Assembly: GCF_963921235.1 (NCBI RefSeq)
Contig: NC_086097.1
Coordinates: forward strand, 25,174,001 to 25,238,000
DNA length: 64,000 nt
DNA from: Mobula hypostoma
Lineage: Eukaryota
Direction: 5' to 3'
The translations under genes were made by a program, and so were the position numbers. How positions within the stretch are numbered: position 1 is the stretch's first letter; each line of letters opens with the position of its first letter. A model generated the notes under the pieces. That model was given only the letters and a program-made list of their open reading frames with translations, ran no database searches and was not told the DNA's origin. Shown here in pieces: positions 5,131 to 57,960 of the stretch.

Positions 5131-7625
5131 CAGTGTCTATAGGAAGTATTAACCCTTCCTTGGAAGTTTTCATGTTTTATTGTTTTACAATATTTAATCA
5201 CAGTAGATTTAATTTGGCTTTTTTTGACACCAATCAACAAAAAAAGAATCTTTCGTGTCAAAGTGAAAACAGATCCCTCCAAAGTGATCTAAATTAATTA
5301 CAAATATAAACATTACATAATTGATTGAGGAAGTATTCACCACCTTTAATATGACACTCTAAATTATCACTGGTGCAGCCACACAAACTGTTAGAGGAAC
5401 CCAACAGGCCAGGCAGCATCTATGGAAAAAAGTACAGTTGACGTTTCGGGCCGAAACCCTTCAGCAGGACTGGAGAAGAAAAGCTGAGGAGTAGATTTGA
5501 AAGGTGGGGAGAGGGAGAGAGAAACGTCTGGCGATAGGTGAAACTTGGAGGGGGAGGGATGAAGCAAAGAGCTAGGAAGTTGAGTGGTTAAAGAGACAGA
5601 AGGCAATGGAAGAAAGATGGGGGGGGAGAGGAGCACTAAAGGGAGGCGATAGGCAGGCAAGGAGATAACATGAGAGAGGGTCAAGGGGAAGGGAAATGGT
5701 GAAGGAAGGGCAGTGGAGGCATTACTGGAAGTTTGAGAAATCGAAGTTCATGCCATCAGGTTGGAGGCTACCCAAACAGAATATAAGGTGTTGTTCCTCC
5801 AACCTAAGTATGGCCTTATCCTGACAGTGGAGGAGGCCATGGATGGACATATCGGAATGGGAATGGGAAGTGGAATTAAAATGGGTGGCCACTGGGAGAT
5901 CCCACTTGTTCTGGCGGATGGAGCATAGATGCTCGGCAAAGCGGTCTCCCAGTCTGCATTGGGTCTCACTGATATACAGGAGGCCACAGCAGGAACACCA
6001 CACACAGTATTTGATCCCAACAGACCCACAGGTGAAGTGTCGCCTCACCTGGAAAGACTGTTTGGGGCCCTGAATGGTAGTGAGGGAGGAGGTGTAGGGG
6101 CAGGTGAAGCACTTGTTTCGGGTTTGCAAGGATAAGTACCAGGAGGGAGATCAGTGGGGGTGGCATAGGGACCGATCCCTGCGGAATGCAGAAAATGGGG
6201 GTGGGAGGGAAACATGTGTTTGGTGGTGGGATCCCGTTGGAGGTGGCATAAGTTTCGGAGAATTATGTGCAGGAGATAGATGCTGGTGGGGGGGTAGGTG
6301 AGGACAAGAGGAACCCTCTCCCTGATACAGCCAATTGGTTTCAGAAGTCACATCATTAGTTAAATGGAAATCACCTGTGTACAGTCACGGTGTTTCCATT
6401 GATTGTAGTAAAAATACACCTGTATCTGGAAGGTCCAGCTGGTGGTGAGTCAGTATCCTGGCAAAAACTACACCATGGAGACAAAAGAGGGCTCCAAGCA
6501 ACTCTGCAAAAAGCTTATTAAGAACTACAAATCAGGAGATGGGCATTTCCAAGTCAATAAATATCCCTTGGAGTACAGTTAAGTCAATCATCAAGAAACG
6601 GAAAGAATATAGCACACCTATAAATCTGCCTAGAGCAGGTCGTCCTCAAAAACTGAATGACTGTGCAAGAAGGGAGCTAGTGAGGGAGGCCACCAAAAGA
6701 CCTATGACAACTCTGGAGGAGTTGCAGGCTTCAGTGGCTGAGATGGGAGAGACTGCGCATATAAAAACTGTTGCCGAAGTGTTTCACCACTTCCAGCTTT
6801 TTAGGAGAGTGGCAAAGAGAAATGCCACTATTGAAAAACCTCGCATGAAATTTCAGCTAGACTTTGCCAGAGGCACATGGCAGACTCTGAAGTCAGCTGG
6901 AAGAAGGTCTATGGTGTGATAAAACCAAAATTGAACTTTTTAGGCATCGGACTAAACCCTGTGTTTGACATAAGCCAAACACGGCACATCATCAAACCAC
7001 ACCATCCCTACCGTGAAGCGTGGTGGTGGCTGCATCATGCTGTGGGGATGTTTCACTGCAGCAGGCCCTGGAAGGCTTGCAAAGGTGGAGGGAAAAATGA
7101 ATGCATCAAAATACAGGGAACTCCTGTAGGAAAACCTGATGCAGTGTTTGTTTTCCATCAAGACAATGATCCCAAGCATAAAGACAAAGCTACAAAGGAA
7201 TGATTAAGAACAGCAAAGTTAATGTCCTGGAGTGGCCAAGTCAGAGTCCAGACTTCAATCCAAATGAGAATTTGTGGCTGGACTTGAAGAGGGCTGTTCA
7301 CTCTCAATTCCCATGCAATCTGACAGACCTTGATCAGTTTTGTAAAGAAGAATGAGGAAAATTGCAGTGTCCAGTTGTGCAAAGATGATAGAGCGCTCTC
7401 CACACAGACTCAAAGCTGTAAGTGCTGCCAAAGGTGCATCTCCTAAATACTGTCCTGAAGGGGGCGAGTAATTATGCAATCAATTATTTTGTGCTAAATA
7501 ATTGTAATACCTTTAATCCAATTTGTAGAAATTTGTTTTCACTTTGACACGAAAGAGTCTTTTCTGTTGATCAGTGTCAAAAAGGCCAAATTAAATCCAC
7601 TATGAATCAATGTTGTAAAACAATC
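5131..7625 (+). mobile_element. Tc1-family (DD34E, IR/DR-type) transposon, degenerate and interrupted by a Penelope insertion
   Basis: Starts ta|CAGTG. The ~210-bp left TIR matches the inverted copy at about 7460-7625. Transposase from ATG 6475 has a paired-like HTH (ISKSINIPWSTVKSIIKK, GRPQK), FHQDNDPKH and WPSQSPDFNPNENLW, with frameshifts and stops. The right TIR is cut off by CR1 at about 7626. Confidence 0.92.
5382..6325 (-). mobile_element. Penelope-like element (Neptune-type) 3' half with GIY-YIG endonuclease and hammerhead-bearing terminus
   Basis: ORF 5722-6129: CFTCPY..HFTC..YCVWCSCCGLLYISET..RLGDRFAEH..PVATHFN..EQHLIF.LGSLQPDGMN. Target duplication cagcca at 5376-5381 and 6328-6333. 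Confidence 0.92.
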
Positions 7626-24108: not shown

Positions 24109-25640
24109 TTTCCACTTTCTTTCTCTCTCTCTTTTTTCTCCCTCTGTCCCTCTCACAATAACCCCTTGCCTGCTTTCCATCCTCCGGGCTCCCCTCCCCC
24201 CTTCCCTCTCTCCCCAGGCTTCCCGTCCCATGATCCTCTCCCTTCTCCAGCCTCGTATCCCTTTTGCCAATCAACTTTCCAGCTCTTGGTTCCATCCCTC
24301 CCCTCCTGTCTTCTCCTATCATTTTGGATCTCCCCCTCCCCCTCCTGCTTTCAAATCTCTTACTATCTCTTCTTTCAGTTAGTCCTGACAAAGGGTCTCG
24401 GCCGGAAACATCAACTGTACCTCTTCCTATAGATGCTGCCTGACCTGCTGCGTTCCATCAGCATTTTGTGTGTGTTGCTTGAATTTCCAGCATCTGCAGA
24501 TTTCCTCGTGTTTGTGTTGATATGTTGGGACCAGGTTAGGTCCTCAGAGATTGACACCCAGGAATTAAAACTGCTCACACTGTCCACTTCTGATCCCTCT
24601 ATGAGTATTGATATGTGATCCCTCATTTTACCCTTCCTGAAGTCAACAATCAGCTCTTCCGTCTTACTGACGTTGAGTGCCAGGTTGTTGCTGTGACACC
24701 ACTCCACTAGTTGGGATATCTCTCTCCTGTACGCCTTCTCATTTCCATCTGAGATTTTACTAACGATGGTTGTATCATCAGCAAATTTATAGATGGTATT
24801 TGAGCTATGCCTAGCCACACAGTAATGGGCTAAGCACACACCCCTGAGGTGCACCAGTGTTGATCGTCAGCGAGGAAGAGATGTTATCACCAATCCACAC
24901 AGATTGTGGTCTTCTGGTTAGGAAGTCGAGGATCCAGTTGCAGAGGGAGGTACAAAGGCCCAGGTTCTGTAACTTCTCAGTCAGGATTGTGGGAATGATG
25001 GTATTAAATGCTGAGCTATAGTTGATGAACAGCATCCTGACATAGGTGTTTGTGTTGTCCAGGTGGTCTAAGGCCGTGTGAAGAGCCATTGAGATTGCAT
25101 CTGCCGTTGACCTATTGTGGTGATAGGCAAATTGCAATGGGTCCAGGTCCTTGCTGAGGCAAGAGTCCAGTCTAGTCATGACCAAGCTCTCTCACAGCAT
25201 TTCATCATTGTAGATGTAAGTGCTGCCGGGCGATAGTCATTAAGGCAGCTCACATTATCCTTCTTAGGCACTGGTATAATTGTTGCCTTTTTGAAGCAAG
25301 TAGGAACTTTCACCCGTAGCAGTGAGAGGTTGAAAAATGTCCTTGAATAGTCCTGCCAGTTGGTTGGCTTAGGTTTTCAGAGCCTTACCAGGTATTCCAT
25401 CGGGACCTTCCACCTTGCGAGGGTTCACCCTCTTTAAATACAGCCTAACATCGACCTCTGAAACAGAGATCACAGGGGTCATCGGGTGCAGCAGGGAACT
25501 TCACAGCTGTAGTTATATTCTCCCTTTCAAAGTGAGCATAGAAGGCATTGAGTTCATCTGGTAGTGAAGCATCGCTGCCATTCATGCTATTGGATTTTGC
25601 TTTGTAAGAAGTAACGTCTTGCAAACCCTGTCAGAGTTGT
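23244..25640 (-). mobile_element. Rex1/Babar-like LINE (RT plus 3' end) interrupted by Penelope
   Basis: [65 protein letters not shown], with a ttctga-type tail. Confidence 0.9.
23794..24519 (+). mobile_element. Penelope-like 3' fragment (GIY-YIG C-terminus, 3' UTR, degenerate hammerhead at 24381-24416)
   Basis: FAEHLCSV..VATHFNS..RLEEQHLVFRLGSLQPDGMNIDFSNF. TSD atatgtt at 23787-23793 and 24520-24526. (ATTT)n inside the UTR. Confidence 0.9.
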
Positions 25641-33160: not shown

Positions 33161-35090
33161 TTAAAAGATTGGCAAGCTTTTACAAACCAACAGAAGACAA
33201 CTAATAAGTCATAAGAAGGTAAAGATAGAATATGAAAGTAAGCTAGCCAGTAATATTAAAGAGGATACCAAAAGTTTCTTCAGATGCATAAAGTGTATAA
33301 GAGAGGCGAGAGTGGATATTGGACCGCTGGAAACTGATGCTGGAGAGGTAGTAATGGGAGACAAGGAAATGGCAGATGAACTGAATAAGTATTTTGCATC
33401 AGTCTTCACAGTGGAAGACACTGGCAGTATGCTGGAAGTTCCAGGTCTTAGGAGTCATGAAGTGTGTGAAGTTGCCATTACTAGGGAGAAATTTCTTGGA
33501 AAACTGAAAAGTCTGAAGGGATATAAGCCACTTGGATTAGATGGTGTACACCCCAGGGTTCTGAGAGAAGTAGCTGAAGAAATTGTGGAGGCATTAGTAA
33601 TGATCTTTCAAGAATCATTAGATTCTGGAATGGTTCCAGAAGTCTGGAAAATTGCAAATGTCATTCTACTCTTCAAGAAAGGAGAACGGCAGCAGAAAGG
33701 AAATTATATGCCTGTCAGTCTGACCTCAGTGGTTGGGAAGATGTTGGAGTAAATTATTAAGAATGAGGTCTCAGGGTACTTGGAGGCACAGGATAAAATG
33801 GGACGTAGTCAGTATTGTTTCCTCATGGGAAAATCCTGCCTAACAAATCAGTTGGAATTCTTTGAAGAAATAACAAACAGGATAGACAAAGTAGAATAGG
33901 TTGATGTTGTGTACTTAGATTTTCCAGAAGGCCTTTGACAAGGTGCCACATGAGTTTGCTTAAGAAACTACGAGTCCATGGTATTACAGGAAAGATCCTA
34001 ACATGGACAAAGCAGTGGCTGATTGGCAGGAGGCAAAGACTGGGGACTGGGAATAAAGGGAGCCTTTTCTGGTTAGCTGCCAGTGACTAGTGGTGTTCCA
34101 CAAAGGACTGCTTTGGGACCTATTCTCTTTACATTATATGTCAATGATTTAGATGATGGAACTGATGGCAAGGTTTGTAGATGATACAAAGGTAGGTGGA
34201 GGGGTAGGAAGTTTTGAGGAAGTAGAGAGGCTACAAAGTACTTGGACAGATTAGGAGAATGGGCAAGGAAGTAGCAGATGGAATACGGTGTTGGGAAGGA
34301 TATAGTCATGCACTTTAGTAGAAGAAATGAAAGGGTTGACTTGGAGAGAAAATACAAAAATCTGAGGCACAAAGGGATTTGGGAGTCCTTGTGCAGGATT
34401 CCCTAAAGGTTAATTTGCAGGTTGAGTCTATGGCGAGGAAGGTAAATGTGATGTTAATATTCATTTCAAGAGGACTACAATATAAAAGCAAGGATGTAAT
34501 GTTCAGACTTTATAAAGCACTGGTGAGGCCTCACTTGGAGTATTGTGAGCAGCTCTGTGCCCTTACACATCTTAGAAAGGATGTGCTGAAAATGGAGAGA
34601 GTTCAAAGGAGGTTCACAAAAATGATTCCAGGATTAAATGACCATTTAATGGCTCTGGACCTGTATTCACTAGAATTCAGAAGAATGAGGGGTTAAAACC
34701 TACATTGAAACCTATTGAATGGTGAAAGCCTTTGCAAGAGTGGATGTGGAAAGGATGTTTCCTATGGTGAGAGTGTCTAAGACCAGAGGACACAGCCTCA
34801 GAATAGACGGATGTCCTTTTAGAACAGAGATGAGGAGGAATTTCTTTAGCCAAAGAGTAATGAATCTGTGGAATTTGTTGCCACAGGCAACTGTGGAGAC
34901 CAAGTCTTTATATATATTTAAGAGAGAGGTTGATAGGTTCTTGATTAGTCAGGGCATGAAGGGATACGGACAAAAGGCAGGAGATCAGGGCTGAGAAAAA
35001 AAACGCATCAGCTATGATGAAATGGCGGAGCAGATTTAATGGGCCAAATAGCCTAATTCTACTCCTATAGCTTATGATCTTATAGTCTTA
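33160..35090 (+). mobile_element. CR1 LINE, degenerate ORF2 and 3' UTR
   Basis: ORFs 33312-33752 (DGVHPRVLREVAEEI..WKIANV..YMPVSLTSVVGKMLE), 34379-34696 and 34719-34994. Confidence 0.92.
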
Positions 35091-35569
35091 AGACCATGCT
35101 TTATGTTATTAATACATTTATGCTGTGGGTATTTTATTTTCTTCAGACTTTCTCAAACTATGCTAAGTATTCTTTTAATTTCATTATACAAACGAATATT
35201 TCATTTCTGCTGTTTAAAGTAAAAATTCAGTGATTGATAAGTTAAGCTTGTTAAATCAGCCAATAGGATTTGTCTTGGGAACAATCCAGAGAGAGCGTGG
35301 GAAAATGACAAGGAGACATTTTATTCCTTTTCAAGGGAGAGCGTGGGATCGAAGAAGGAGAATGGAAATAGTCAACGAACATTAGATATGAACACGGTGA
35401 AACGTTCACAGAACTATTTGGAAGGACAGATAACTTTTAGTTAGCACATGACACTAAAGAAAGTTTGACCTTTTTCCTTGGGATATTGCGTGAAAATTTG
35501 TTTCTTGGGACAGGTTCTTCAGTGCAAAACCATTTCATGTTGTGACTAAACGAAGTGAAGTAAATTGGA

Positions 35570-35767
35570 AACAACAGGAATTCTGCAGATGCTGGAAATT
35601 CAAGCAACATACATCAAAGTTGCTGGTGAACGCAGCAGGCCAAGCAGCATCTATAGGAAGAGGCGCAGTCGACGTTTCCTGACGAAGGGTCTCGGCCTGA
35701 AACGTCGACTGCGCCTCTTCCTATAGATACTGCTTGGCCTGCTGCGTTCACCAGCAACTTTGATGTA
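35570..35767. mobile_element. Palindromic non-coding Penelope-terminus insertion
   Basis: 71-bp inverted arms (35608-35678 and 35699-35769) with one mismatch. 14-bp TSD tgaagtaaa(t/c)tgga at 35556-35569 and 35768-35781. Confidence 0.88.
35679..35710 (+). ncRNA. Minimal type I hammerhead ribozyme core (Penelope-type)
   Basis: CUGACGA-AGGGUCUCGGCCU-GAAACGUC-GACU: conserved core, stem II hairpin, loopless palindromic ACGU stem III and GUC cleavage triplet. The 5' strand of stem I is replaced by the inversion junction. Confidence 0.75.
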
Positions 35768-35849
35768 TGAAGTAAACTGGATTGATTAAGCAACAATGAG
35801 CTACAACGATTATCTCCTTTATCATTACACTGGAAAGGGATAGGAACAG

Positions 35850-36350
35850 ACAAGTTAGGAAAGCGTTTAATTGGAGTCAGGGGAAATATGAAGCTATCAG
35901 GCTGGAACTTGGAAGCATAAATTGGGAACAGATGTTCTCAGAGAAATATATGGCAGGAATGTGGCAAATGTTCAGGGGATACTTGCGTGGTGTTCTGCTT
36001 GGGTACGTTCCAATAAGACGGAAAGGATAGTAGGGTACAGGAACCGTGGTGTACAAAAGCTGTTGAAAATCTAGTCAAGAAGAAAAGAAAAGCTTATGAA
36101 GATTCAAAAGACTAGGTAATGATAGAGATCTAGAAAATTATAATACTAGCAGGAAGGTGCTTAAGAATGAAATTAGGAGAGCCAGAAGGGGCCATGAGAA
36201 AGCTTTGGTGAGTAGGATTAAAGAAAACCCCAAGGTGTTCTACAAGTATGCGAAGAGCAAGAGGATAAGGCATGAGAGAACAGGACAATCAAGTGTGACA
36301 TTGGAAAAGTGTGTATGGAAGCAGAGGAGATAGCAGTGGTACCTAATGAA
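35850..36350 (+). mobile_element. CR1-like ORF2 internal fragment
   Basis: Remnant LKNEIRRARRGHEKALVSRIKENPKVFYKY. Confidence 0.75.
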
Positions 36351-36619
36351 TACAATTTTGTTCTAAGTTTATACTGGTGTGAACTAGCGAACAGTAAATT
36401 TGCGTTTGGTTCAGTGTTCATACAGTAACTGGCTGTGTTTTCCCTTGGTAGGAACATTCAAACTTTTATGTTTCTATATACCCAAAATCATATTTACCCT
36501 GGACTTATTTAATGGAAATGACCTCTTTCATCATCATTCCCATGCTTTGTCGAGTTACGTTGCTGTTAGTTTGAATTCACAGCAATAGCTAACTCATTAT
36601 GAGCCTATGGTGAGAGAGT

Positions 36620-36890
36620 TAGATTTATTTATTGAGATACAGCACTGAATAGGCCCTTCGAGCCCGTCGAGCCACGCCGTCCAGCAACCCACCAATTTAA
36701 CACTAGCCTAATTGCAGAACAATTTACAACAACCAATTAACCTACAAACCTGTATATCCCTGGATTGTGGGAGGAAGCTGAAGCACCCAGAGGAAACCCA
36801 TGCGGTCACAGAGAGAACGTACAAGTTCCTTAAAAGCAATGTCGGGAATAGAACTCGGGTCACCTGAACTGTAAACCGATAGGACTTAAC
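36620..36890 (-). mobile_element. HE1/V-SINE-like SINE with CR1-type tail
   Basis: V-core gggtttcctctgggtgcttcagcttcctcccacaatcca. Tail gggctcgaagggcctattcagtgctgtatctc. Similar copy at 51010-51260. Confidence 0.75.
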
Positions 36891-42169: not shown

Positions 42170-43700
42170 GCTCCTGAAGTCAATAATCAGTTCCTTGGTC
42201 TTGCTGACATTGAGTAAGAGGTTGTTGTTATGGCACCACTTAGCCAGATTTTCAATCTCCACCCTCTATGTTGATTCATCACCACCTTTGATTTGGCCTA
42301 CAGCAGTGGTGTCGTCAGCAAATTTGAATGTGGCATTAGAGCTGTGCTTAGCCATACAGTCATAAATGTAAAACAAGTAGAGTAGTGGGCTAAGCACACA
42401 GCCATGTGGTGCACCCGTGCTGATGGAGATTGTGAAGGAGATGTTGTTGCAAATCCCAACTGACTGGGGTCTACAAGTAAGGAAATCGAGGATCCAGTTG
42501 CACAAGGAGGTATTGAGGCCAATGCCTTGAAGTTTATTGATCAGTTTTGAGGGGATGATAGTATTGAATGCCAAGCGGTAGTCGATAAAGGGAATTCTGA
42601 TGCACATATCTTTGCTGTCAAGGTGTTCTAGGGTTGAGTGAAGAGCCAATGAAATGGCATCTGTTGTGGATCTGTTATGCTGGTGGACAAACTGGAGTGG
42701 ATCCAAGTTGCTTCTCAGGCAAGAGTCGACGTGTTTCATCAGCAACCTCTTAAAACACTTCACCACTGTGGATGTAAGAGCTACTGGACAACAGTCATTG
42801 AGGCAAGTTACCATGTTCTTCTTCGGCACCGCTGTAACTGAAGCCTGCTTGAAGCAGGTGGGTACCTCAGACTGCTGAAGCAAGAGGTTAAACATTTCAG
42901 TGAACACTTCAGCCAGTTGATCAGCACAGGTCTTTAATACCCGGCCAAGTACTCCATCTGGGCCGGACTCTCCCACAGGTTCACCCTCCTGAAGAATGCT
43001 TTCACGTTGGTCTCAGGGACAGAAACCACAGGATCATCAGGGGCTGTTGGAGTTCATGATGGTTCCTCCAAATTTTGATGGTCAAAGCGAGCACAGAAGA
43101 CATCAAACAACACAAACAACAGGAATTCTGCAGATGCTGGAAATTCAAGCAACACACATCAAAGTTGCTGGTGAACACAGCAGGCCAGGCAGCATCTCTA
43201 GGAAGAGGTACAGTCGACGTTTCAGGCCGAGACCCTTCGTCGAGCTCATCTGGAAGTGAAGCCCTGTTGTCACCTATGTCGCTTGATTTTACTTTATAAG
43301 AGGCACGTAGAACGTAGAAATCTACAGCGCACAATAGAAACTGCCTAGAACTTCCCTAGTGCATAGCCCTCTGTTTTTCTAAGCTCCATGTACCCATGCT
43401 GCAGGTGATAGCATTCAAACCCTATCGCAAGTGTAGAGCATCCCTCATTGATTCAAGTTCAGTCCGGAATTGCCACTTCACCAGTGAGATGGCTTTCCAG
43501 AGATCGTACCTGGACCTCTTGTAACATTTTTTGATCACCAGACTTGAATGTCTCTGACCTGGCTCTCAGTGTATTGCAGATCTGATGGTTCATCCAGGTC
43601 TTCTGGTTGGGGAAGACTCTGAATGATTTTGTGGGGACACAGTTGTCTATGACTGTTATAAAGTTATAAAGTCTGTGACAACTGTGGTGTATTCATTACA
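42170..43700 (-). mobile_element. Rex1/Babar-like LINE RT fragment with Penelope-terminus insertion at about 43107-43241
   Basis: ORF 42266-42976: GPDGVLGRVLKTCADQLAEVFT..LDPLQF..AFNTIIP..KFADDTT. Confidence 0.88.
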
Positions 43701-50578: not shown

Positions 50579-51271
50579 CTGTTAAAGAACAATAAGGAAA
50601 CAAGTACTATTATAAAAATATAGCACCATACATCCTTATATCATTACTCACAATGGTTGTCATAAGCAATGCAATTATTACCATGCATTTCATCTTCTAA
50701 CCTATCAAAATCTCCTTGCATAAACACAAAAAACTCTGCCAATGTTGGAAATCCAAAGCAACACACATACAATGCTGGAGGAACTCAGCAGGCCAGGCAG
50801 CATCTGTGGAAATGAATATATAGTCGACATTTTGTACTGAGACCCTTCTTCAAATCACCTCCTTATGATATCTCCAGAGAACGAAGAAACCATGCAGTAA
50901 CATATCCTGTCACTAACTCAAGATACTGCCTGGCCTGCTGAGTTCCTCCAGCATTTTGTGTGTGCTGATCCCATTCTAGAAAAGTTTTTTTTTAAATTTT
51001 TACTTTTATTTCTTTAGGGATCCAGCACAGTAACAAGCTTTTCTAGACCAATGAGCCTATGCTGCCCAATTACACACGTGACCAATTAACCAACTAACCC
51101 ATACATCTTGGGAATGTAAGAGGAAATCAAAGTACCCGGAAGAAACCCACACAGTCACAGGGAAAACATACAAACTCCTTATAGACAGCGGCAAGAACCA
51201 AACCAGGGTCACTAATGTTCTAATATCATTACACTCACCGCTATGCTACCGTGCTGCCCCAGTTCTGAAAA

Positions 51272-55349: not shown

Positions 55350-57026
55350 ACACACACACACGCACACACACACACATATACATACACATGCATTTATATT
55401 TATATGTATATAAGTATATAAATATATAAATGAGTGATTTAAATATATAAATGGTGGTATAAAAGGTAATATAAACATACATAATGCAGAATGCAGTGTT
55501 ACAGTTACAGAGAAAGCACAGTGCACGTAGACAAATAAAATGCAGGATGCCACAAACAAAGTGGATCGGCAAATGAAGAGTTCATCTTTTAATGATGAGA
55601 GGTCTTTTCAGGAGTCTGATAACAGTGGGATAGAAGCTGTCCTTGAGCCTTGCGGTACATACTCTCAGGTTTTTGTCTATTCCACTTGAGGAAAGAGGGG
55701 AGCAGGAAGAAAGTCCGGGATGGGTGGGGTCCTTTTTATCGCTTGACTTCTCTGCCACAAAATAACAAATTGAATGCCATACCCGGCAGTGACTTATACT
55801 GCCCGGTAAAGAGACTCCAGTGTAGACTCAGCCAGCTCCATCACAGGCACAGGCCTCCCCTCCATCAAGGACATCTCCAAAAGGCAGTTCCTCAGGAAAG
55901 CAGCATCCATCACTGAGAACCCTCACCATCTGTAACACACTCTCTTCTCATTACTACCATCAGAGAGGAGCTTAAAGATTCAAAGTCAAATTTTAAGAAT
56001 AGCTTCTTCCCCTCCTTCAGAAAGACCATCTTACTAATTTATATTATTTATTTTATTTTTATATTGTGGCTTGTTGTAATTGTTATGTCTTGCTCTGTAT
56101 TGCTGCCACAAAACAACAAATTTCATGATGTATGTCAATAATCTTAAACCTGCTTCTGATTCTGTCTTCGATTATGTTGACTGATTTCCTAGTTCAGCAG
56201 GGCGTGTAGACAGAGTCAATGATGAGGGAAGGCTGGTTTGCGCAACAGACTGGGCACATGCAGCTTTTAGTTTTGATAAAACTATCAAGTTGATCCACAC
56301 TTTGGCTGGTGAATATGATTAGATTAGATCAATTAGATGAGCTTTATTTGTCACATATACATTAAAACATCAAAATATGTTGTGAAATGGCTTGCAAAAC
56401 ACCACACACAAAATGCTGGAGGAACTCAGAAGGCCAAGCAGCATCTATGAAAAGGAGTAAACGGTCAACATTTCAGGCCGAGACTCCTCATTGGGACTTT
56501 TTCCAGATACCCTACCTGGCCTACTGGGTTCCTCCAGCATTTTGTGCATGTTGCTTGGATTCCCAGTATCCGTAGATTTTCTCATGTCAGTAAAATGTCT
56601 GCTAGCTTCATCCCACTGCCTTTCCAGTCTTGATGAAGTGTCTCAATCCGAAATCCCCGCTGTTTATTCCTCTCCATATATTCTGCCTCTCCTGCTGAGT
56701 TCCTCCAACATTTTGTGTGTGTTATTCCGGATTTCCAGCAACTGTAGAACCTCTTGTGTTTATACAGTAAAATGTGCTGTTTGCATCAACAAACAACACA
56801 GTCTGAGAATGTGCTGGGAGCAGCCCACAAATGTCACCATCCTCCATTGCCAACACTGCGTAACCACAATTTACTAATGCTAACCCCTGCTACTTTGGAA
56901 TGTGGGAGGAAACTGGAGCACCTGAAGGAAGCTCACATGGTCATAGGGTAAACATATAAAGTTCTTACAGACAGCAACAGGATTGAACCTCAATTGCTGG
57001 CACTATAACGGATTATGTTAACCGCT

Positions 57027-57800
57027 ACACACACACAAAATGCTGGAGGAACTCAGCAGGTCAGACAGCATCTTTGGAAAAGAATATACAGTTGACGTTT
57101 TGGGTCAAGACCCCTCTTCGGGACTGAAAAGGAAGGGGGTAGATGCTAGAATAAAAAGGCAGGGGAGAGGAAGGAGGATAGCTAGAAGGTGATAGATGAA
57201 GCCAGGTGGTTGGAAAGATAAAGGAAGGGCTGGAGAAGAAGAAATCTAAAAAGGTGAGGAGAGTGGGCCACGGGAGAAAAGGATGGAGGAGGGAACCTAG
57301 AGGAAGGGGATAGGCAGGTGAGAAGAGGTAAGAGGCCAAAGTGAGGAACAGAAGAAAAGGAGAGGGGGAGGGAAAACTCTTTTTACCAAATGGAGAGATC
57401 AATATTCATGGCATCAGGCTGGAGGCTACCCAGAAGGAATATCAGGTTTTGCTCCTCTATTCTGAGGGTAGCCTCATCTTGGCACAAGAGGAGGCCATGG
57501 ACTGACATGTCAGAACGGGAATAGCAATCAGAATTAAAATGTTTGGCCACCGGGAAGTTCCGCTTGTGGCGGATTGAGTGGAGGTGCTCAACAAAGCAGT
57601 CCCCCAACTTACAGTGGGTCTCACCAACGTAGAGAGATACATTGTGAGCACCAAGCACAATAGACGACCCAGCAGGCTCACAGCTGAAGAGTTGCCTCAC
57701 CTGGAAGGACTGTTTTGGGCCCTGAATGGAGGTGAGGGATGAGGTGAATGGGCAGGTGTTGCACTCAGACCACTTGCAGGAATAAGTGCTGGGAGGGAAC
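57027..57800 (-). mobile_element. Penelope-like (Neptune-type) 3' fragment with GIY-YIG remnant
   Basis: LYVGETHCKLGDCFVEHL..PVAKHFNS..EEQNLIFLLGSLQPDAMNID. Homologous to 5382-6130. Confidence 0.88.
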
Positions 57801-57960
57801 TGCTAACCACTACACCACCATGCTGCCCCTGCAGAAGTAATAGGGAGTAGTTCTAGAGTTTTGAACCTCAGATAGTCAATCAGCCTAGAAATATTCCTGG
57901 AAATACAATTTCATATCAGTCACATTGGCATGGATGCAAGAGTTTCATTCCTTTGTACAC

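What the first reader, a model, noticed from the sequence alone, without database searches (positions are those of the whole stretch)
35556..35781. Palindromic, TSD-flanked, hammerhead-carrying non-coding retro-insertion (retrozyme-like mini-element)
Seen: a ~200-bp insertion between 14-bp target duplications, made only of the Penelope terminal sequence. It folds into 71-bp inverted arms (one mismatch) around a 20-nt spacer. Spacer plus right arm read CUGACGA-stem II-GAAACGUC-GACU, an intact minimal hammerhead core. Known: Penelope-like elements carry minimal hammerheads in their terminal repeats and often leave inverted termini. Inference: this is a young, ORF-less unit mobilised in trans, possibly a distinct non-autonomous family. 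Transcription from either strand would give a long dsRNA hairpin inside the host intron.
Basis: partly seen in the sequence, partly recalled or inferred. Interest (0 to 1): 0.75.

Follow-up and report, generated by a model that had tools for sequence, protein, structure and literature searches.

The report
Mirror-image Penelope retrotransposon stub
This 198-base mirror-image insertion is two back-to-back copies of the end of a very common Penelope-like jumping gene, a known layout found thousands of times in this genome, likely built afresh at each landing, and its ribozyme motif has lost one stem and is predicted to be inactive.

Summary
The palindrome is real: 71-bp arms with one mismatch, a 20-nt spacer and a 14-bp target duplication (13/14), which uninterrupted copies of the host repeat carry once. 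It is the end of an abundant endonuclease-bearing Penelope-like element (PLE; 63,448 exact 31-mer hits), inserted twice head to head; only one arm carries the ~38-nt 'tail'. The hammerhead core letters are intact, but the junction removes helix I (2 bp left) and the hairpin buries GAAACGUC. No host exon was found, so 'intron' is unproven. The layout is described for PLEs. Likely mechanism: both nicked target strands prime reverse transcription, one at each start site; 31 of 31 resolvable inverted insertions have exactly one tail. This scan already reported the same thing at other loci of this genome.

The parts
35556..35569 (+). Left target-site duplication (14 bp)
   Evidence: present once in 6 of 9 uninterrupted paralogues of the host repeat
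35570..35607 (-). PLE 'tail' (about element +92 to +130; +1 = C of CUGACGA), on this arm only
   Evidence: two end classes (+85 to +100, +128 to +134) in 100 sampled arms
35608..35678 (-). Left inverted arm: pLTR copy +21 to +91, truncated at GAAAC, lacking the 5' half of the hammerhead
35677..35678 (.). Inversion junction with 2-bp microhomology shared by both arms (element -1/+21)
35679..35710 (+). Minimal hammerhead motif: CUGACGA, helix II, GAAACGUC (predicted cut after 35706) and the 3' strand of helix I; the 5' strand of helix I is missing
   Evidence: sequence; folding; min-HHR definition in PMC4209133
35699..35769 (+). Right inverted arm: pLTR copy +21 to +91, ends at the short (tail-less) end; last 2 bp overlap the TSD
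35768..35781 (+). Right target-site duplication (13 of 14 identical to the left)
35200..35812 (+). Older dispersed repeat that the element landed in (interrupted at the TSD; left limit not mapped)
   Evidence: 39 other genomic matches at 75-87% identity; flanks continuous in paralogues

Best explanation
The insert is two head-to-head, 5'-truncated copies of the end of an abundant endonuclease-bearing Penelope-like retrotransposon, likely assembled during one integration event rather than copied from a palindromic master. Shown: the parent family encodes an RT-like region and a GIY-YIG endonuclease upstream of the same terminal repeat, with the hammerhead in the sense strand. Inferred: the endonuclease cuts both target strands about 14 nt apart; each 3' end primes reverse transcription, one at the outer start site (the arm with the tail) and one at the inner site (the arm without); both cDNAs stop early, most often at the 5' edge of the hammerhead, and are joined through a few complementary bases (2 here). 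The hammerhead in this copy is predicted to be dead: helix I is gone and its 3' half is locked in the 71-bp stem. My odds: by-product rather than separate family about 0.9; two-ended priming as the route about 0.6.
For: Family size: 63,448 exact hits to a 31-mer of the arm, 26,312 to the native hammerhead with helix I. Parent ORF in L053 and L138: GIY-YIG PF01541 E=4e-4, 20.9 bits, just under the 22.6 cut-off; RT-like motifs read by eye. Inversion is routine: 42 of 100 consecutive arms have an inverted partner, about 34 of 92 insertions, with arms up to about 1.1 kb that include ORF ends (L138). Junction spectrum: 3,182 compact palindromes; 31 breakpoint pairs in the first 50; class counts 591, 116 and 27. 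Among the 27: tail on either arm 12/12, four main haplotypes (8, 6, 4, 4) also seen in native copies (11, 7, 5, 4 of 30), 23 different TSDs. One-tail rule: 31 of 31 resolvable inverted insertions, 3 unresolved, p=5e-10 against 50%. Both arms share a haplotype in 49 of 63 loci against 21% for random pairs. In this copy neither arm contains the other. The anole PLE protein cuts and extends both strands, starts at two sites that bound the tail, and does not need hammerhead cleavage (PMC11167929).
Against: The exact junction does recur 27 times, so some copies could descend from one another. A fold-back intermediate trimmed by the endonuclease on either side would give the same one-tail, either-arm pattern. 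Arm concordance could also come from later gene conversion or from one subfamily being active at a time; 14 of 63 loci have discordant arms. The RT piece had no Pfam or PDB hit; the Atlas gave mostly HTH_animal clusters, RVT_1 in only 19% of one. The in vitro work is on a Poseidon-clade element, not this family. No orthologous empty site was bridged.
Confidence: 0.8

Rival explanations
1. Same by-product status, different route: self-priming (fold-back) makes a hairpin intermediate and the endonuclease then resolves it, leaving the tail on one arm at random.
For: Self-priming was proposed for PLE head-to-head repeats (PMC3846280 passages); the tail was ascribed to endonuclease resolution (PMC8557442 passages). 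It explains arm concordance (49 of 63) directly.
Against: Fold-back without later trimming cannot make this copy or 12 of the 27, where the tail is on the arm lacking the 5' bases. In vitro, the tail ends are RT start sites. The same 5' stop cluster occurs in non-inverted copies (9 of the 20 ends at -5 to +3).
Confidence: 0.25
2. A distinct non-autonomous palindromic family: a master with this junction is transcribed and moved in trans by the PLE protein.
For: 27 loci share the exact junction with different TSDs; PLE proteins can act in trans on pLTR-flanked cargo (PMC3846280).
Against: Both tail polarities, four haplotype backgrounds shared with ordinary copies, variable short ends, and a junction that is rarer than two others and sits on a 2-bp microhomology at a truncation hotspot.
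Confidence: 0.07
3. A retrozyme-like unit whose hammerhead self-cleaves and makes a circular RNA.
For: The conserved core letters and the palindromic helix III of PLE minimal hammerheads are present (PMC4209133).
Against: Single unit, not tandem; one motif only; helix I reduced to 2 bp with pairing probability 0.0; GAAACGUC paired at 0.98 or more in the long stem. Even intact single minimal hammerheads showed no cleavage (PMC4209133).
Confidence: 0.03

Closest known systems
Endonuclease-positive PLE insertions with an inverted 5'-truncated pLTR, one-sided 30-40 bp tail and TSD (PMC8557442; Adineta Pen2a in PMC3846280)
   Same: Head-to-head pLTRs, tail on one end only (38 nt here), TSD, hammerhead in the pLTR, 5' truncation.
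   Different: Extreme truncation: no ORF sequence remains; TSD 14 bp against 8-10 bp in Adineta; tens of thousands of young copies allow counting.
Anolis Poseidon element PAc (PMC11167929)
   Same: Two end positions bounding a tail; hammerhead apparently copied through uncut.
   Different: The element here has a C-x4-C-x2-C linker before GIY-YIG (read), a Neptune/Nematis trait in PMC8557442; clade not tested by a tree; no biochemistry on this family.
Minimal hammerheads of metazoan PLEs (PMC4209133)
   Same: Core letters, extra base before helix II, palindromic loop-less helix III.
   Different: Helix I is 4-5 bp in the native family but 2 bp in this copy; the core is buried in the hairpin.
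Non-LTR retrozymes (PMC7229834; bioRxiv 10.64898/2026.07.22.740005)
   Same: Small, non-coding, PLE-related, hammerhead-bearing.
   Different: Retrozymes are head-to-tail tandem repeats with a complete type I hammerhead per unit; this is one head-to-head unit with a broken motif.
L1 twin priming (recalled, no call)
   Same: Inversion made by priming from both target nicks, joined by microhomology.
   Different: In L1 the two cDNAs copy different parts of the RNA; here both copy the same part, giving a palindrome.

Membership tests
EN+ Penelope-like element insertion | Parent ORF with RT followed by a C-terminal GIY-YIG endonuclease | tested here: met
   L053/L138 ORFs; PF01541 E=4e-4, just under cut-off; RT by motif reading only, no Pfam or PDB hit
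EN+ Penelope-like element insertion | pLTR with a minimal hammerhead | tested here: met
   26,312 exact native copies with helix I; helix I pairs at 0.76-0.81 in a 52-nt native fragment but 0.002 in a 194-nt one
EN+ Penelope-like element insertion | Inverted 5'-truncated copy at the 5' end | tested here: met
   This locus; 42 of 100 sampled arms
EN+ Penelope-like element insertion | 30-40 bp tail on one end | tested here: met
   38 nt here; 31 of 31 resolvable inverted insertions
EN+ Penelope-like element insertion | Target-site duplication | tested here: met
   12 bp or more in 22 of 27 and 39 of 50 loci
Neptune clade | Cys linker between RT and EN, and RT phylogeny | tested here: inconclusive
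   Linker seen but shared with Nematis; no tree built
Non-LTR retrozyme | Head-to-tail tandem units, each with a hammerhead | tested here: not met
   Single head-to-head unit; 3 of 100 sampled arms have a tandem neighbour
Non-LTR retrozyme | Complete type I hammerhead fold | tested here: not met
   Helix I 2 bp, probability 0.0; no Rfam hammerhead hit
Non-LTR retrozyme | Self-cleavage and circular RNA | not testable with these tools
   Needs bench assay or stranded RNA reads
Distinct non-autonomous family | Junction repeated with different TSDs | tested here: met
   27 loci, 23 different TSDs of 11 bp or more
Distinct non-autonomous family | Shared termini and shared diagnostic bases | tested here: not met
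   Tail on either arm 12/12; four haplotypes shared with ordinary copies

The most novel reading that the evidence does not exclude
The thousands of young palindromes in this genome are an in vivo record that a PLE protein primes from both target nicks at once, one at each of the two RT start sites of one RNA, and that copying stops preferentially at the 5' edge of the uncut hammerhead. One junction class (116 exact copies) rebuilds the hammerhead with a helix I of 60 bp or more and could be a better ribozyme than the parent.
Probability: 0.5. Interest if true: 0.5.

Novelty: new member of a known kind. Interest (0 to 1): 0.22.

Why it matters
The locus itself is ordinary. As a population, these insertions let one test how Penelope-like elements make inverted ends, which the papers read here leave open (self-priming versus priming from both strands): the strict one-tail rule with the tail on either arm, and the stop cluster at the hammerhead's 5' edge, are predictions that the existing in vitro PLE assay can check. 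Thousands of long perfect hairpins would also be a large potential source of double-stranded RNA if transcribed, which was not tested.

Tried and rejected
Rfam over 34500-36800: only mir-3926 and mir-1538, far below gathering scores, generic hairpin matches. Host gene: 279 ORFs of 38 aa or more outside repeats gave three weak Pfam hits, all under cut-off; 54% of the window matches other fetched loci; exons shorter than that or without Pfam domains would be missed, so intron versus intergenic is open. Expression: no RNA holder listed; contigs of a run guessed to be RNA cover only the repeated parts. Orthologous empty site: a second organism's contig matches the left flank but stops at 35535, and no contig bridged the site; a contig that runs on into right-flank-like sequence matches paralogue L238, not this locus. 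Ribozyme cleavage as the source of 5' ends: only 3 of 63 ends lie at +29, the predicted cut-product start. PDB and Pfam searches with the RT piece found nothing. No earlier notes near this locus. Literature: 'Penelope' + 'twin priming' + 'inverted' gave 2 papers, neither on PLE mechanism by title (listing only); other searches were made; subscription papers are not in the library, so absence from print is not shown.

Full report
Observation. The window holds inverted arms at 35608-35678 and 35699-35769 (71 bp, one mismatch) around a 20-nt spacer, between direct repeats at 35556-35569 and 35768-35781 that match at 13 of 14 bases. The hairpin folds at -150.4 kcal/mol, z = -19. The insert is 198 bp. 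The target is an older dispersed repeat (39 other matches at 75-87%); 6 of 9 fetched paralogues pass from the left flank to the right flank with one copy of the 14-mer, which confirms the duplication. Below, +1 is the C of CUGACGA (35679): the left arm is antisense +21 to +130, the right arm sense -1 to +91, joined over 2 shared bases.

Parent element. A 31-mer of the arm has 63,448 exact hits in the 3.48-Gb genome and the native hammerhead context 26,312. Longer copies run upstream into broken ORFs with RT-like motifs, a C-x4-C-x2-C linker and a GIY-YIG domain (PF01541 E=4e-4, 20.9 bits against a 22.6 cut-off). The RT piece had no Pfam or PDB hit, and the Atlas gave HTH_animal clusters with RVT_1 in 19% of one, so RT rests on motif reading. 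The hammerhead is in the ORF's sense. The linker fits Neptune or Nematis (PMC8557442 passages); no tree was built. Earlier notes call the host a ray; I did not test that.

Family or by-product. It does not show a family. The tail is on the arm lacking the hammerhead's 5' half in 12 loci (as here), on the other arm in 12, unresolved in 3. Short ends range from +82 to +99. Six diagnostic sites give four main haplotypes (8, 6, 4, 4, plus 5 singles), the same four that dominate 30 native copies (11, 7, 5, 4, plus 3 others). Compact palindromes with any junction number 3,182, a lower bound. The first 50 on contig C1 show 31 breakpoint pairs and 39 spacers; the commonest pair has 13 and this junction 1, the window itself. 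Genome-wide class counts are 591 (-2/+3), 116 (-3/+29) and 27; the patterns differ slightly in length, so the ratios are rough. In the first 100 consecutive exact arm hits, 42 have an inverted partner, about 34 of 92 insertions, and L138 has the same layout with arms of about 1.1 kb that include ORF ends. The locus is the short extreme of a continuum.

Mechanism. Three patterns were measured. First, 31 of 31 resolvable inverted insertions have one tailed and one tail-less arm (3 unresolved; p=5e-10 against free choice), with the tail on the shallower arm in 13 and the deeper arm in 10 of the 23 where depth differs; lone arms are 26 tailed and 32 short. Second, both arms share a haplotype in 49 of 63 loci (13 of 76 dropped for short measurable arms) against 21% for random pairs. 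Third, 20 of 63 5' ends between -60 and +57 fall at -5 to +3 (p=2e-8, interval chosen after seeing the data), 9 of them in non-inverted copies, while only 3 lie at +29, the predicted cut site. The anole PLE protein cuts and extends both target strands, starts at two internal sites that bound the tail, and uses uncleaved RNA (PMC11167929, parts 1-2 of 4 read). I infer that each nick primes at one start site, both cDNAs stop near the hammerhead's 5' edge, and they join by microhomology. In this copy neither arm contains the other, so plain fold-back cannot make it. The rival is self-priming (PMC3846280 passages) followed by endonuclease trimming of one arm (PMC8557442), which the genomic data cannot exclude. 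Arm concordance may also reflect gene conversion or successive subfamily activity.

Ribozyme. The core letters match PLE minimal hammerheads (PMC4209133, parts 1-2 of 4). In native copies helix I has 4-5 bp; here the junction replaced its 5' strand, leaving 2 bp, with pairing probability 0.0, and +22 to +28 are fully paired in the long stem. Native helix I forms at 0.76-0.81 in a 52-nt fragment but at 0.002 in a 194-nt one, so folding models are only a guide. Rfam found no hammerhead. That paper saw no cleavage for a single minimal motif. This copy is predicted inactive. By contrast the 116-copy class joins through helix I itself: in L200 helix I pairs at 0.93-1.0 and continues into the arms, and 19 of 30 fetched copies keep the core, although part of the core is still mispaired in the predicted monomer.

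Context. No host exon was detected, no RNA holder was listed, and no contig bridged the orthologous site. Intron location, transcription and dsRNA stay open.

Comparison and novelty. An inverted 5'-truncated pLTR, a one-sided 30-40 bp tail and a TSD are standard for endonuclease-bearing PLEs. Non-LTR retrozymes are tandem repeats with a complete hammerhead per unit (PMC7229834 passages; bioRxiv 10.64898/2026.07.22.740005, part 1 of 5); this locus fails both points. No supplements were read. My searches did not turn up a paper deriving PLE palindromes from two-ended priming, but the library is partial. Eight earlier notes of this scan describe the same kind of insertion elsewhere in this genome, several with the same mechanism; my reading was noted before I saw them, and they are not independent evidence. 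Verdict: real, ordinary PLE by-product; new member of a known kind; interest 0.22, resting on the population-level test of the mechanism.

Noticed in passing
L199-L228 (116 loci genome-wide): A junction class joined through the hammerhead's own helix I, so the motif is rebuilt with the whole arm as an extended helix I; 19 of 30 fetched keep the core; tail again on either arm (11/11, 8 unresolved).
   Followed up: partly
sample of 100 arms on G000:C1 0.07-4.1 Mb: 5' ends cluster at -5 to +3, the 5' edge of the hammerhead, in inverted and lone copies alike; RNA start or RT stall not told apart.
   Followed up: partly
window 43115-43241: Second young copy of the same family, not inverted, with tail, 5' end at +3.
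   Followed up: partly
window 24301-24512: Older-subfamily copy with helix I intact and upstream 3' UTR.
   Followed up: no
window 5397-6150, 50732-50953, 56414-56757, 57383-57802: Further decayed PLE pieces, two with GIY-YIG-like translation.
   Followed up: no
L138 997-3435: Large head-to-head PLE insertion with arms of about 1.1 kb that each include the ORF end.
   Followed up: partly
L012, L020, L021: The two arms differ at subfamily-diagnostic sites; possible mixed templates, mosaic repair or later mutation.
   Followed up: no
L003: Three-part structure: an extra antisense piece precedes the junction.
   Followed up: no
L100 and L101; L061 and L168: Pairs with the same junction; L100/L101 lie 4 kb apart and L061/L168 share 5' flanks, probably duplicated with surrounding DNA.
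   Followed up: no
window 6449-7203: Translation looks like a Tc1/mariner transposase fragment (recognised by eye, not tested).
   Followed up: no
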